The notes under the pieces were generated by a model. The model worked only from the letters and a program-made list of their open reading frames with translations, was not told where the DNA came from and searched no databases. This document shows positions 50,378 through 58,065 of a stretch of DNA of 64,000 nt, piece after piece (the first letter of the stretch is position 1; each line of letters begins with the position of its first letter). Origin of the DNA: the human T2T-CHM13v2.0 reference genome, Homo sapiens; the NCBI RefSeq assembly GCF_009914755.1, contig NC_060926.1; one strand, written 5' to 3'. The translations under genes and the position numbers were made by a program.

Positions 50378-53300
50378 ATGACAGGATCAAATTCACACAT
50401 AACAATATTAACTTTCAATGTAAATGGACTAAATGCTCCAATTAAAAGACACAGACTGGCAAATTGGATAAAGAGTCAAGACCCATCAGTGTGCTGTATT
50501 CAGGAAACCCATCTGACGTACAGAGACACACATAGGCTCAAAATAAAAGGATGGAGGAAGATCTACCAAGCAAATGGAAAACAAAAAAAGGCAGGGGTTG
50601 CAATCCTAGTCTCTGATAAAACAGACTTTAAACCAATAAAGATCAAAAGAGACAAAGAAGGCCATTACATAATGGTAAAGGGATCAATTCAACAAGAAGA
50701 GCTAACTATCCTAAATATATATGCACCCAATACAGGAGCACCCAGATTCATAAAGCAAGTCCTGAGTGACCTACAAAGAGACTTAGACTCCCACACATTA
50801 ATAATGGGAGAATTTAACACCCCACTGTCAACATTAGACAGATCAACGCGACAGAAAGTCAACAAGGATACCCAGGAATTGAACTCAGCTCTGCACCAAG
50901 CGGACCTAATAGACATCTAAAGAACTCTCCACCCCAAATCAACAGAATATACATTTTTTTCAGCACCACACCACACCTATTCCAAAATTGACCACATACT
51001 TGGAAGTAAAGCTCTCCTCAGCAAATGTAAAAGAACAGAAATTATAACAAACTATCTCTCGGACCACAGTGCAATCAAACTAGAACTCAGGATTAAGAAT
51101 CTCACTCAAAACTGCTCAACTACATGGAAACTGAACAACCTGCTCCTGAATGACTACTGGGTACATAACGAAATGAAGGCAGAAATAAAGATGTTCTTTG
51201 AAACCAACGAGAACAAAGACACAACATACCAGAATCTCTGGGACGCATTCAAAGCAGTGTGTAGAGGGAAATTTATAGCACTAAATGCCCACAAGAGAAA
51301 GCAGGAAAGATCCAAAATTGACACCCTAACATCACAATTAAAAGAACTAGAAAAGCAAGAGCAAACACATTCAAAAGCTAGCAGAAGGCAAGAAATAACT
51401 AAAATCAGAGCAGAACTGAAGGAAATAGAGACACGAAAATCCCTTCAAAAAATTAATGAATCCAGGAGCTGGGTTTTTGAAAGGATCAACAAAATTGATA
51501 GACCGCTAGCAAGACTAATAAAGAAAAAAAGAGAGAAGAATCAAATAGACACTATAAAAAATGATAAAGGGGATATCACCACCGATCCCACAGAAATACA
51601 AACTACCATCAGAGAATACTACAAACACCTCTATGCAAATAAACTAGAAAATCCAGAAGAAATGGATAAATTCCTCGACACATACACTCTCCCAAGACTA
51701 AACCAGGAAGAAGTTGAATCTCTGACTAGACCAATAACAGGAGCTGAAATTGTGGCAATAATCAATAGTTTACCAACCAAAAAGAGTCCAGGACCAGATG
51801 GATTCACAGCCGAATTCTATCAGAGGTAAAAGGAAGAACTGGTACCATTCCTTCTGAAACTATTCCAATCAATAGAAAAAGAGGGAATCCTCCCTAACTC
51901 ATTTTATGAGGCCAGCATCATTCTGATACCAAAGCCGGGCAGAGACACAACCAGAAAAGAGAATTTTAGACCAATATCCTTGATGAACATTGATGCAAAA
52001 ATCCTCAATAAAATACTGGCAAAACGAATCCAGCAGCACATCAAAAAGCTTATCCACCATGATCAAGTGGGCTTCATCCCTGGGATGCAAGGCTGGTTCA
52101 ATATACGCAAATCAATAAATGTAATCCAGCATATAAACAGAGCCAAAGACAAAAACCACATGATTATCTCAATAGATGCAGAAAAGGCCTTTGACAAAAT
52201 TCAACAACCCTTCATGCTAAAAACTCTCAATAAATTAGGTATGGATGGGACGTATTTCAAAATAATAAGAGCTATCTATGACAAACCCACAGCCAATATC
52301 ATACTGAATGGGCAAAAACTGGAAGCATTCCCTTTGAAAACTGGCACAAGGCAGGGATGCCCTCTCTCACCACTCCTATTCAACATAGTGTTGGAAGTTC
52401 TGGCCAGGGCAATTAGGCAGGAGAAGGAAATAAAGGGTATTCAATTAGGAAAAGAGGAAGTCAAATTGTTCCTGTTTGCAGACGACATGATTATATATCT
52501 AGAAAACCCCATTGTCTCAGCCCAAAATCTCCTTAAGCTGATAAGCAACTTCAGCAAAGTCTCAGGATACAAAATCAATGTACAAAAATCACAAGCATTC
52601 TTATACACCAATAACAGACAAACAGAGAGCCAAATCATGAGTGAACTCCCATTCACAATTGCTTCAAAGAGAATAAAATACCTAGGAATCCAACTTACAA
52701 GGGATGTGAAGGACCTCTTCAAGGAGAACTACAAACCACTGCTCAAGGAAATAAAAGAGGATACAAACAAATGGAAGAACATTCCATGCTCATGGCTAGG
52801 AAGAATCAATATCGTGAAAATGGCCATACTGCCCAAGGTAATTTACAGATTCAATGCCATCCCCATCAAGCTACCAATGCCTTTCTTCACAGAATTGGAA
52901 AAAACTACTTTAAAGTTCATATGGAACCAAAAAAGAGCCCGCATCGCCAAGGCAACCCTAAGCCAAAAGAACAAAGCTGGAGGCATCACACTACGTGACT
53001 TCAAACTATACTACAAGGCTACAGTCACCAAAACAGCATGGTACTGGTACCAAAACAGAGATATAGATCAATGGAACAGAACAGAGCCCTCAGAAATAAC
53101 GCTGCACATCTACAACTATCTGATCTTTGACAAACCTGAGAAAAACAAGCAGTGGGGAAAGGATTCCCTATTTAATAAATGGTGCTGGGAAAACTGGCTA
53201 GCCATATGTAGAAAGCTGAAACTGGATCCCTTCCTTACACCTTATACAAAAATCAATTCAAGATGGATTAAAGACTTAAACGTTAGACCTAAAACCATAA

Positions 53301-54205
53301 AAACCCTAGAAGAAAACCTAGGCATCACCATTCAGGACATAGGCATGGGCAAGGACTTCATGTCCAAAACACCAAAAGCAATGGCAACAAAAGACAAAAT
53401 TGACAAATGGGATCTAATTAAACTAAAGAGCTTCTGCACAGCAAAAGAAACTACCATCAGAGTGAACAGGCAACCTACAAAATGGGAGAAAATTTTCACA
53501 ACCTACTCATCTGACAAAGGGCTAATATCCAGAATCTACAATGAACTCAAACACATTTACAAGAAAAAAACAAACAACCCCATCAAAAAGTGGGTGAAGG
53601 ATATGAACAGACACTTCTCAAAAGAAGACATTTATGCAGCCAAAAAACACATGAAAAAATGTTCATCATCACTGGCCATCAGAGAAATGCAAATCAAAAC
53701 CACAATGAGATACTATCTCAAACCAGTTAGAATGGCAATCATTAAAAAGTCAGGAAACAACAGGTGCTGGAGAGGATGTGGAGAAATAGGAACACTTTGA
53801 CACTGTTGGTGGGACTGTAAACTAGTTCAACCATTGTGGAAGTCAGTGTGGCGATTCCTCAAGGATCTAGAACTAGAAATACCATTTGACCCAGCCATCC
53901 CATTACTGGGTATATACCCAAAGGATTATATATCTTGCTGCTATAAAGATACATGCACACGTATGTTTATTGCGGCATTATACACAATAGCAAAGACTTG
54001 GAACCAACCCAAATGTCCAACAATGATAGACTGAATTAAGAAAATGTGGCACATATACACCATGGAATACTATGCAGCCATAAAAAATGATGAGTTCATG
54101 TCCTTTGTAGGGACATGGATGAAATTGGAAATCATCATTCTCAGTAAACTATCGCAAGAACAAAAAACCAAACCCCGCATATTCTCACTCATAGGTGGGA
54201 ATTGA
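50378..54205 (+). pseudogene. L1 ORF2p (EN-RT-C domain), full length with nonsense mutations
   Basis: MTGSNSHITIL start, 3828 bp span; stops at 50918-50920, 51827-51829, 53798-53800 and 54032-54034; FADD intact; EN GDFN changed to GEFN. Confidence 0.96.
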
Positions 54206-56018: not shown

Positions 56019-58065
56019 TTTCTTTCTTTCTTTTTTTGTTGTTGTTGTTGTCTTCTTTATACATAATTTTTTTTATTTCTATCACTTTTTTTTATTATTA
56101 TACTTTAAGTTCTAGGATACATGTGCACAACGTGCAGGTGTGTTACATATGTATACATGTGCCATGTTGGTGTGCTGCACCCATTAACTCATCATTTACA
56201 TTAGATATATCTCCTAATGCTATTCTTCCCCCATTACCCCACCCAACGACAGTCCCCAGTGTGTGATGTTCCCCCTCCTCTGTCCAAGTGTTCTCATTGT
56301 GCAATTCCCACCTGTGAGTGAGAACATGCGATGTTTGCTTTTTTGTCCTTGCAATAGGTTGCTGAGAATGATGGTTTCCAGCTTCATCCATGTCCCTACA
56401 AAGGACATGAACTCATCATTTTTTATGGCTGCATAGTATTCCATGGTGTATATGTGCCACATTTTCTTAACCCAGTCTATCATTGTTGGACATTTGGGTT
56501 GGTACCAAGTCTTTGCTATTGTGAATAGTGCCACAATGAACATATGTGTGCATGTGTCTTTATAGCAGCATGATTTATAATCCTTTGGGTATACACCCAG
56601 TAATGCGATGGCTGGGTCAAATGGTATTTCTAGTTCTAGATCCTTGAGAAATCACCACACTGTCTTCCACAATGGTTGAACTAGTTTACAGTCCCACCAA
56701 CAGTGTCAAAGTGTTCCTATTTCTCCACATCCTCTCCAGCACCTGTTGTTTCCTGACTTTTTAATGATTGCCATTCTAACTGGTGTGAGATGGTATCTCA
56801 TTGTGGTTTTGATTTGCATTTCTCTGATGGCCAGTGATGATGAGCATTTTTTCATGTGTCTTTTGGCTGCATAAATGTCTTCTTTTGAGAAGTGTCTGTT
56901 CATATCCTTCGCCCACTTTTTGATGGGATTTTTTTTTCTTGTAAATTTGTTTGAGTTCTTTGTAGATTCTGGATATTAGCCCTTTGTCAGATGAGTAGAT
57001 TGCAAAAATTTTCTCCCATTCTGTAGGTTGCCTGTTCACTCTGATGGTAGTTTCTTTTGCTGTGCAGAAGCTCTTTAGTTTAATTAGATCCCATTTGTCT
57101 ATTTTGGCTTATGTTGCCATTGCTTTTGGTGTTTTAGACATGAAGTCCTTGCCCATGCCCATGTCCTGAATGGTATTGCCTAGGTTTTCTTCTAGGGTTT
57201 TTATGGTTTTAGGTCTAACAGTTAAGTCTTTAATCCATTTTGAATTAATTTTTATATAAGATGTAAGGAAGGGATCCAGTTTCAGCTTTGTACATGTGGC
57301 TAGCCAGTTTTCCCAGCACCATTTATTAAATAGGGAATCCTTTCCCATTTCTTGTTTTTGTTGGGTTTGTCAAAGATCAGGTGGTTGTAGATGTGTGGTA
57401 TTATTTCCGGGGGCTCTATCTGTTCCATTGGTCTATATCTCTGTTTTGGTACCAGTACCATGCTGTTTTGGTTACTGTAGCCTTGTAGTATAGTTTGAAG
57501 TCAGGTAGCATGATGCCTCCAGCTTTGTTCTTTTGACTTAGGATTGTCTTGGCAATGCGGGCTCTTTTTTGGTTCCATATGAACTTTAAAGTAGTTTTTT
57601 CCAATTCTGTGAAGGAAGTCATTGGTAGCTTTATGGGGATGGCAGTGAATCTATAAATTACCTTGGGCAGTATGGCCATTTTCATGATATTGATTCTTCC
57701 TATCCATGAGCATGGAATGTTCTTCCATTTGTTTGTGTCCTCTTTTACTTCATTGAGCAGCGGTTTGTAGTTCTCCTTGAAGAGGTCCTTCACATCCCTT
57801 GTAAGTTGGATTCCTAGGTATTTTATTCTCTTTGAAGCAATTGTGAATGGGAGTTCACTCATGATTTGGCTCTCTGTTTGTCTGTTATTGGTGTATAAGA
57901 ATGCTTGTGATTTTTGTACATTGATTTTGTATCCTGAGACTTTGCTGAAGTTGCTTATCATCTTAAGGAGATTTGGGGCTGAGAGGATGGGGTTTTCTAA
58001 ATATACAATCATGTCATCTGCAAACAGGAACAATTTGACTTCCTCTTTTCCTAATTGAATACCTT
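56019..58065 (-). mobile_element. 5'-truncated LINE-1, L1PA4/5-like (~2 kb) with composite tail
   Basis: ttattatactttaagttctagg 3' end; ORF2 from [11 protein letters not shown] to the C-terminus on minus strand; no TSD seen. Confidence 0.95.

What the first reader, a model, noticed from the sequence alone, without database searches (positions are those of the whole stretch)
52436..58065. Shared private mutations, including an identical nonsense codon, between two inverted L1s of different ages: probable gene conversion
Seen in sequence: the + strand L1PA2 and the - strand L1PA4/5 both translate KLFLFADD (T at 52470, mirrored by A at 58029), and both ORF2s stop at GEIGTL* (TGA at 53798-53800, mirrored at 56706-56708). 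From recalled consensus, L1PA elements read KLSLFADD and GEIGTLLHC (TTA). Neither change is a CpG transition. A stop inside the cysteine-rich domain is unlikely to come from active sources of two separate subfamilies. The L1PA2 also carries older-type bases nearby (ctcAAggatc ~53861, ggaTtata ~53926), while other diagnostic sites still differ. Inference: patchy non-allelic gene conversion or hairpin-templated repair between the arms spread an inactivating allele.
Basis: partly seen in the sequence, partly recalled or inferred. Interest (0 to 1): 0.8.

Follow-up and report, generated by a model that had tools for sequence, protein, structure and literature searches.

The report
Neighbouring L1 copies share rare variants
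Two tail-to-tail L1 retrotransposon copies of different age do share a rare base and a stop codon, but both variants recur elsewhere in the genome and cluster among neighbouring L1 copies, which points to local copying between repeats rather than an event private to this pair.

Summary
The sequence facts hold. The + arm (52436-54412) and the reverse-complemented - arm (56094-58065) are 93.55% identical. Both carry T at 52470/58029 and TGA at 53798-53800/56706-56708.

Neither variant is private. T at 52470 is in 117 of 7,629 genomic copies (1.5%). G at 53799 is in 253 of 12,169 (2.1%).

Two shared non-CpG, non-majority bases is not unusual: 36 of 483 unlinked young x old L1 pairs share at least two.

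The pair does have a 199-bp and a 121-bp run of perfect identity. Runs of 199 bp or more occur in 2 of 483 control pairs, and a second run of 121 bp or more in 0 of 483.

The TGA variant is strongly regional. 27 of chromosome 2's 29 carriers lie in 205-229 Mb, and 11 lie within 1.1 Mb of the window. In the + arm it travels with two other rare bases (53026C, 53554C). These are shared by at least five other independently inserted + strand L1s lying 0.3-0.47 Mb away.

Other rare L1 variants also cluster locally.

Best reading, about 50%: short-tract non-allelic gene conversion among neighbouring L1s, including + arm to - arm. Chance remains a serious rival. The regional clustering is the more interesting result.

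The parts
48395..54473 (+). Younger, about 6.1-kb L1 insertion (the '+ arm' element). Limits are approximate.
   Evidence: A 27-bp direct repeat, 96% identical, at 48368-48394 and 54474-54500 flanks it and is taken as the target-site duplication. The hub's repeat mask covers 48470-54492. It has 47 of 56 young-type diagnostic states.
52436..54412 (+). + arm: the part of the young L1 that is homologous to the - arm.
   Evidence: Pairwise alignment gives 1842 matches, 127 mismatches and 11 gap columns.
54413..56093 (.). Spacer between the two 3' ends (tail-to-tail), about 1.68 kb, with A-rich tails at both ends.
56094..58065 (-). - arm: an older, 5'-truncated L1 with its ORF2 frame broken in several places.
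   Evidence: It has 10 of 56 young-type states and 56 non-majority bases. Frameshifts and many stops are seen. Its flanks are unrelated to those of its local relative L070.
52470..52470 (+). Shared T (mirror at 58029); the majority base is C.
   Evidence: T is in 117 of 7,629 exact-flank copies, dispersed over the genome. It is absent from 19/19 young and present in 1/20 old relatives.
53798..53800 (+). Shared TGA (mirror at 56706-56708); G at 53799 where the majority has T.
   Evidence: G is in 253 of 12,169 copies, and A or C in 176. None of the 29 young or 26 old relatives has G.
52539..52737 (+). 199-bp run identical in both arms (mirror 57762-57960); candidate conversion tract, + arm to - arm.
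53722..53842 (+). 121-bp run identical in both arms (mirror 56664-56784); it contains the TGA.
53026..53026 (+). Rare C in the + arm, shared with + strand L1s at chr2 209.14-209.38 Mb and absent from the - arm.
   Evidence: 189 genomic hits, of which 7 lie in 209.14-209.61 Mb, all on the + strand. Searches list the carriers.
53554..53554 (+). Rare C in the + arm, shared with + strand L1s at chr2 209.14-209.71 Mb and absent from the - arm.
   Evidence: 125 genomic hits, of which 8 lie in 209.14-209.71 Mb, all on the + strand. Searches list the carriers.
54032..54034 (+). Second in-frame TGA of the + arm's ORF2; not shared with the - arm.
   Evidence: The difference at 54034 is listed.

Best explanation
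The two arms are independent L1 insertions of different age lying tail to tail. The two shared bases are low-frequency variants that recur in the genome. They most likely reached both arms by short-tract non-allelic (ectopic) gene conversion, which appears to be common among neighbouring L1 copies in this L1-dense region.

The + arm carries a local three-site set (53026C, 53554C, 53799G) that it shares with other + strand L1s up to 0.47 Mb away. The - arm most likely received G at 53799 from the + arm 2.9 kb away, or from a like neighbour. It probably also received T at 52470 and the 199-bp block 52539-52737 in the same way. The transfers came as short patches, and the - arm kept its own markers in between.

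Shown: the variants, their genome-wide counts, their regional clustering, the independence of the insertions, and the long identical runs.

Inferred: that conversion is the process, and that the direction was + arm to - arm.
For: - Identical runs of 199 and 121 bp. Of 483 unlinked young x old pairs, 2 reach 199 bp and 0 have a second run of 121 bp or more. The - arm against 23 young copies reaches at most 159 bp.
- The - arm has no bases of its own in 52539-52737. The sum of its three largest mutation-free gaps exceeds all of roughly 58 control copies (simulation P = 0.0011).
- L070, an L1 129 kb away, shares 8 derived characters with the - arm, including a 1-bp deletion. It has C at 52470, G at 52582 and T at 53799. 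The - arm therefore changed at these sites towards the + arm's states.
- G at 53799 is not a lineage marker. Carriers are scattered over the L1PA tree (17 changes on 75 rows). No other column is associated with G. The 3' flanks of 27 carriers are unrelated.
- G at 53799 is strongly regional. 27 of 29 chromosome-2 carriers lie in 205.4-229.2 Mb, against 6 of 36 control-variant copies (binomial 9e-18).
- A true lineage variant (G at 53875, 897 copies) and the majority-type copies are evenly spread.
- 53026C, 53554C and 53799G co-occur in at least 5 + strand elements of differing diagnostic make-up (a sixth has 53026C and 53799G without an exact 53554C match). The flanks that were checked are unrelated.
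- Other rare variants also form local clusters. For G at 53821, 7 pairs lie within 500 kb against 0.5 expected. For G at 53341, 3 against 0.25. Five carriers of G at 53798 lie within 350 kb.
- Gene conversion between neighbouring Alu copies within about 10 kb is in print (passages read in PMC6598467 and PMC8230782).
Against: - Two shared non-CpG non-majority bases occur in 7.5% of random unlinked pairs (mean 0.43), so the original observation alone is within chance.
- Neither shared site lies in the 199-bp run. T at 52470 is separated from it by 7 differences in 56 bp.
- Against the - arm's derived states, the + arm matches no better than other young copies do (12 matches against up to 12). 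Only 52470 and 52612 point to the + arm specifically.
- Sharing of three separate sites by several elements that differ at diagnostic sites in between needs many short tracts or a drive. A bias towards GC among locally shared variants was not significant (8 of 10 against 56% background, P = 0.12).
- Clusters reaching megabases go far beyond the roughly 10-kb range reported for Alu.
- The number of T-bearing copies inside the clusters could not be counted, so local frequencies are rough estimates.
- No ape orthologues were available.
Confidence: 0.5

Rival explanations
1. Coincidence. Both arms acquired T at 52470 and G at 53799 by independent mutation, and the long identical runs are chance.
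For: - 36 of 483 random unlinked pairs share at least two non-CpG non-majority bases. Counting CpG sites, 158 of 483 do.
- Both variants recur (117 and 253 copies).
- T at 52470 is dispersed over the genome, like an ordinary recurrent transition.
Against: - The 199-bp and 121-bp runs (2/483 and 0/483).
- G at 53799 outnumbers A and C at that site combined (253 against 176, of which 14 of the first 100 listed are A). It is strongly clustered in space, which independent mutation at a uniform rate does not give.
- Carriers of T at 52470 include other very close pairs: C4:49043152/49045251 and C5:65286706/65301342.
Confidence: 0.28
2. Regional, site-specific hypermutability. Position 53799, and likewise 53026 and 53554, mutates A:T to C:G at a very high rate in particular chromosomal domains, with no exchange between copies.
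For: - All three locally shared bases of the + arm's set are A:T to C:G changes.
- G carriers have no hitch-hiking variants nearby.
- Both old-type and young-type copies carry G (13 of 990 and 153 of 5,975 exact 61-mers).
Against: - Each variant has its own, mostly different, set of clusters. For example 53026C clusters at C9:19.7-29.0 Mb and 53554C at C12:60.9-61.7 Mb. One regional process acting on sequence context should hit all of its sites in the same regions.
- Equally L1-dense stretches have no G at all, for example C1:68-95 Mb.
- Transition variants cluster too.
- No templating quasi-repeat was found next to the site.
Confidence: 0.13
3. Inheritance from source elements. Both arms, or all G carriers, descend from source L1s that already carried the variants.
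For: A true lineage variant can reach hundreds of copies (G at 53875: 897 copies).
Against: - G carriers fall in many places on the L1PA ladder (17 changes) and share no other base.
- Lineage variants are evenly spread over chromosomes, whereas G is not.
- A stop in ORF2 should bar autonomous copying (recalled: Moran et al. 1996).
- The nearest relatives of both arms lack both variants.
Confidence: 0.04
4. Assembly or polishing artefact from reads cross-mapped between the arms.
For: None was found.
Against: - The arms differ at 136 of 1,977 columns, and the spacer and flanks are unique. Long reads should therefore place them unambiguously (inference).
- The same variants occur in hundreds of unrelated loci.
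Confidence: 0.02

Closest known systems
Non-allelic gene conversion between neighbouring retrotransposon copies. Described for Alu by Aleshin and Zhi 2010, as cited in PMC6598467 and PMC8230782 (passages read).
   Same: Non-diagnostic variants are shared by physically close, independently inserted copies. Sharing falls with distance. Young copies act as donors to old ones. Inactive alleles can spread after 'death'.
   Different: Here the elements are L1, not Alu. The pair shares only two sites plus two identical runs. Clusters of the same variant extend over hundreds of kilobases to megabases, not about 10 kb. Carriers of the local three-site set are all in one orientation.
Arm-to-arm gene conversion in palindromes and inverted repeats, for example the Y-chromosome palindromes (recalled; no paper read here).
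   Same: There are two inverted arms with a short spacer (1.68 kb) and patches of identity between the arms.
   Different: The arms here are only 93.55% identical and come from two separate insertions, not from a duplication. There is no arm-wide homogenisation. The shared TGA is also held by copies far outside the pair.
Homoplasy by recurrent mutation in ageing repeat copies.
   Same: Both variants recur in many unrelated copies. The count of shared sites is within the empirical chance range.
   Different: Recurrent mutation does not predict the spatial clustering, or that G outnumbers A and C combined at the site.
L1PA subfamily succession, the ladder of diagnostic changes (recalled: Khan, Smit and Boissinot 2006).
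   Same: Both arms fit the ladder overall (47/56 and 10/56 young states).
   Different: The shared bases are not diagnostic of any step. Local copies show states out of step with the ladder: the + arm at 53862 and 53926, the - arm at 52582.

Membership tests
Gene-conversion tract between the two arms | A run of identity longer than the pair's divergence predicts (GENECONV-type test). | tested here: met
   Runs of 199 bp and 121 bp. Controls: at least 199 bp in 2 of 483 pairs, and a second run of at least 121 bp in 0 of 483.
Gene-conversion tract between the two arms | More shared derived, non-consensus bases than unlinked pairs show. | tested here: not met
   2 shared non-CpG bases. 36 of 483 unlinked pairs have at least 2 (7.5%).
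Gene-conversion tract between the two arms | The shared variants lie inside one continuous tract without intervening arm-specific differences. | tested here: not met
   52470, 53799 and the 199-bp run are three separate blocks. Differences lie at 52483-52538, 53721 and 53843.
Gene-conversion tract between the two arms | The recipient differs from its own closest relative exactly where it matches the donor. | tested here: inconclusive
   The - arm differs from L070 at 52470, 52582, 53737 and 53799 in the + arm's direction. Other young copies match its derived states equally often (12 against up to 12).
Gene-conversion tract between the two arms | Orthologous loci in other apes show the state before the event. 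| not testable with these tools
   No ape genomes were held.
Private (unique) mutation | The variant is absent from other copies of the family. | tested here: not met
   117 of 7,629 and 253 of 12,169 copies carry them.
L1 lineage (source-inherited) variant | Carriers form a clade, share other bases, and are spread evenly over the genome. | tested here: not met
   17 state changes on the tree. No associated column. Strong regional clustering, against an even spread for the lineage variant G at 53875.
Segmental duplication of an L1-bearing segment | Homologous flanks and identical truncation points. | tested here: not met
   The flanks of 27 G carriers are unrelated. So are those of two local carriers and the + arm. 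L070 and the - arm have different 5' ends and unrelated flanks.
GC-biased gene conversion | An excess of weak-to-strong changes among the shared variants. | tested here: inconclusive
   8 of 10 locally shared variants against 516 of 916 singletons (P = 0.12).

The most novel reading that the evidence does not exclude
Rare single-base variants, including an ORF2 nonsense allele now present in at least 253 copies, spread among independently inserted L1PA copies of different subfamilies over neighbourhoods of 10 kb to several megabases. Locally the spread is tied to orientation: 10 of 10 carriers of the + arm's set are on the + strand. This would mean that frequent long-range non-allelic gene conversion, or an unknown regional site-specific process, reshapes dispersed L1s far beyond the roughly 10-kb range described for Alu.
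Probability: 0.4. Interest if true: 0.8.

Novelty: new variant of a known kind. Interest (0 to 1): 0.5.

Why it matters
- If neighbouring L1s exchange short tracts this often and this far, divergence-based ages and subfamily calls of individual L1 copies in L1-dense regions are biased.
- 'Private' mutations can no longer be taken as independent events, which matters for mutation-rate studies that use repeat copies as neutral clocks.
- Inactivating or regulatory alleles could travel between dead copies.
- It would also give a sequence read-out of which parts of a chromosome recombine ectopically in the germ line.
- For this pair alone the matter is ordinary: two decayed L1s, with no gene nearby.

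Tried and rejected
- **Dfam consensus comparison and GENECONV** were not available. They were replaced by nearest-neighbour sets from the same genome and by empirical run and sharing tests.
- **A G-bearing L1 lineage** was rejected.
- **Segmental duplication** was rejected for the loci checked.
- **A quasi-repeat that could template T>G** was looked for within three mismatches. Nothing adjacent was found (9 matches against 7.9 expected). There is only a weak direct similarity in the old-type 3' UTR, which the mostly young carriers lack.
- **GC bias among shared variants** was not significant.
- **Pairwise counts of shared rare states across all loci** proved confounded by the subfamily make-up of the sample and were not used as a test.
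- **The 'sister' reading of the - arm and L070** was weakened. The - arm has about 10 young-type states that L070 lacks. The shared markers may therefore be spreading variants rather than proof of common descent.
- **Counting T-bearing copies inside the clusters** failed.
- **Literature.** Searches found no paper on this TGA variant or on megabase-scale clustering of L1 variants. This covers only the held library and those terms. In one search the pangenome L1 preprint only mentions gene conversion in passing.

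
Full report
**What is there**

The window holds a roughly 6.1-kb L1 on the + strand. It is flanked by a 27-bp direct repeat at 48368-48394 and 54474-54500. A 5'-truncated L1 lies on the - strand at 56094-58065. The two are tail to tail, with a 1.68-kb spacer.

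Over the shared 2 kb the arms have 1842 matches, 127 mismatches and 11 gap columns, which is 93.55% identity.

The + arm's ORF2 tail is open apart from this TGA and a second TGA at 54032. The - arm's frame is already broken upstream by 1-bp deletions and an in-frame TAG at 57418. The stop is therefore not what inactivated the - arm.

**Are the shared bases private?**

They are not. The window's own assembly could be searched.

- The 35-mer around 53799 occurs 12,169 times with any base at the site. G accounts for 253 and A or C for 176, so T is the majority with 11,740.
- The 33-mer around 52470 occurs 7,629 times, 117 of them with T.

Both variants nevertheless recur, at 2.1% and 1.5%.

**Reference sets**

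No Dfam consensus was on hand, so I fetched reference copies from the same genome:
- the 29 best genomic matches to a 231-bp piece of the + arm (set P);
- the 29 best matches to the same piece of the - arm (set M);
- 29 matches to the region around the TGA. This last set is biased towards G carriers, because the search seeds on rare words.

No copy in P or M has G at 53799 (P: T in 29/29; M: T in 24 and C in 2 of 26). T at 52470 is in 0/19 of P and 1/20 of M.

On 56 diagnostic columns the + arm has 47 young-type states and the - arm 10. The two arms have 34 and 56 non-majority bases respectively. This fits a young and a clearly older insertion. The subfamily names themselves were not tested.

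**Is the sharing more than chance?**

Among 483 unlinked P x M pairs, the number of shared bases that differ from both set majorities and are not CpG transitions has a mean of 0.43. At least two occur in 36 pairs, or 7.5%. With CpG sites included, 158 of 483 pairs reach two. The pair's two shared sites are therefore not significant on their own.

A run test gives more. The arms have perfect runs of 199 bp (52539-52737) and 121 bp (53722-53842, which holds the TGA).
- In the 483 control pairs the longest run reaches 199 bp in only 2.
- The second-longest run never reaches 121 bp.
- The - arm against 23 young copies gives at most 159 bp.

The - arm has no bases of its own inside the 199-bp run. 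The sum of its three largest mutation-free gaps is larger than in all of roughly 58 control copies (simulation P = 0.0011).

**The TGA variant is regional**

G at 53799 outnumbers A and C at that site combined (253 against 176; 14 of the first 100 A-or-C hits listed are A).

On the tree of 75 copies its carriers are scattered along the L1PA ladder, with 17 state changes. No other alignment column goes with G. The 3' flanks of 27 carriers are unrelated. It is therefore neither a lineage marker nor the product of segmental duplication.

G occurs in both young-type and old-type copies: 153 of 5,975 and 13 of 990 exact 61-mers respectively.

Its places are far from even:
- Chromosome 1 has 9 carriers, chromosome 2 has 29, chromosome 3 has 42, and chromosome 4 has at least 38.
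- On chromosome 2, 27 of the 29 lie in 205.4-229.2 Mb.
- 11 lie within 209.14-210.23 Mb, including the two arms.
- Three control variants place only 6 of 36 chromosome-2 copies in that stretch (binomial 9e-18).
- Majority-type copies, and a true lineage variant (G at 53875, 897 copies), are evenly spread.

**A local set of shared variants**

Two of the + arm's apparently private bases, C at 53026 and C at 53554, are also carried by L091, L092 and L094. These are G carriers 0.33-0.47 Mb away that I had fetched for their position alone.

Genome-wide, 53026C has 189 hits and 53554C has 125. Of these, 7 and 8 respectively lie in 209.14-209.71 Mb. Together they mark 10 distinct elements, all on the + strand.

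By coordinates, five elements carry all three bases (53026C, 53554C, 53799G). A sixth, at 209.297 Mb, has 53026C and 53799G but no exact match for 53554C.

These elements differ in diagnostic make-up (35 to 47 young states) and in their 5' ends. The flanks of the two that were checked are unrelated to each other and to the + arm's flanks. The - arm has G but neither C.

**The - arm's local relative**

L070, an L1 129 kb away, shares eight derived characters with the - arm, including a 1-bp deletion. Its flanks are unrelated and its 5' end is different.

L070 has C at 52470, the old-type G at 52582 and T at 53799. The markers shared by the - arm and L070 at 52538 and 52738 bound the 199-bp run on both sides. 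This is what a + arm to - arm tract would leave.

Two cautions apply. First, the - arm also has about ten young-type states that L070 lacks. Second, the + arm matches the - arm's derived states no better than other young copies do (12 against up to 12). Only 52470 and 52612 point to the + arm itself.

**Rare L1 variants cluster locally in general**

- G at 53821: 52 copies, with 7 pairs within 500 kb against 0.5 expected from control lists.
- G at 53341: 34 copies, with 3 pairs against 0.25 expected. One of the three is the ascertained pair here.
- G at the adjacent position 53798: five carriers within 350 kb on chromosome 4.
- L025 and L026: 80 kb apart, opposite strands, unrelated flanks. 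They share four rare bases besides the TGA and a 278-bp identical run.

Each variant has its own set of clusters. This argues against a single regional mutational process and for identity by descent of short segments, that is, exchange between copies.

**Reading**

The best-supported mechanism is short-tract non-allelic gene conversion among neighbouring L1s. The - arm would be a recipient of G, and probably of T at 52470 and the 199-bp block, from the + arm or a like neighbour (about 50%).

However, the variants are not private, the count of shared sites is within chance, and there is no single tract.

The + arm's 'older-type' bases at 53862 and 53926 are better read as independent transitions. 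The - arm's G at 53912 lies between them and was not transferred.

Rivals:
- coincidence, about 28%;
- regional site-specific hypermutability, about 13%;
- inheritance from source elements, about 4%;
- artefact, about 2%.

A GC bias of the shared variants was looked for and is not significant.

**What is known**

Gene conversion between neighbouring Alu copies within about 10 kb, with young copies as frequent donors, is in print. I read passages of PMC6598467 and PMC8230782 that cite Aleshin and Zhi 2010.

My searches found nothing on this TGA variant or on megabase-scale clustering of L1 variants. That covers only the held library and those terms.

The following are recalled, not read here: ages of L1PA subfamilies, the effect of cysteine-motif mutations on retrotransposition, and palindrome arm conversion.

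**Limits**

I could not count majority-type copies inside the clusters, and local frequencies are rough.
- The reference sets are nearest neighbours, not curated subfamilies.
- The run tests were chosen after seeing the alignment.
- No ape orthologues, raw reads or other human assemblies were available.

Noticed in passing
G000 C3:67.3-90.4 Mb, C4:77-135 Mb, C6:75.7-82.6 Mb, C1:165.4-170.7 Mb (outside the window): The same TGA variant forms multi-megabase clusters. An example is 14 exact 61-mer hits in C4:129.05-132.35 Mb. Equally L1-dense stretches such as C1:68-95 Mb have none.
   Followed up: partly
G000 C2:222633739(+)/222635386(-) and C3:74631515(+)/74636924(-): Two more close + then - (facing) L1 pairs, 1.6 and 5.4 kb apart, in which both members carry the TGA variant, as in the window.
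   Followed up: no
window 56094-58065 and locus L070 (G000 C2:209744498-209747727): The - arm and an L1 129 kb away share eight derived characters, including a 1-bp deletion at the column of 53080. Their flanks and 5' ends are unrelated. The - arm also has about ten young-type states that L070 lacks.
   Followed up: partly
G000 C2:209.14-209.71 Mb: All 10 elements that carry 53026C and/or 53554C are on the + strand. Along 209.1-211.5 Mb the G carriers fall into runs of like orientation. Whether L1s in general are biased in orientation here was not checked.
   Followed up: no
loci L025 and L026 (G000 C4:93.56 and 93.48 Mb): Two independent L1s on opposite strands, 80 kb apart, share the TGA, G at 53821, C at 53647 and two more rare bases, with a 278-bp identical run. 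A third carrier of G at 53821 lies 91 kb further on.
   Followed up: partly
G000 C4:173513904-173863161: Five L1 copies within 350 kb carry G at the position next to the TGA site (column 53798). This variant is seen in only 25 of the first 100 non-T hits genome-wide. Segmental duplication was not excluded there.
   Followed up: no
window 48368-48394 and 54474-54500: A 27-bp direct repeat, 96% identical, flanks the + strand L1. It is probably its target-site duplication and is unusually long.
   Followed up: no
window 57786-58475: The RefSeq 'enhancer' feature given by the hub overlaps the 5' end of the - arm and its flank. It was not examined.
   Followed up: no
window 56278-56291 (- strand): The old-type 3' UTR holds a direct quasi-repeat of the TGA site (ACACTTGGACAGAG against ACACTTTGACACTG). 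It could template a T>G change in old-type copies, but it cannot explain the mostly young carriers.
   Followed up: partly
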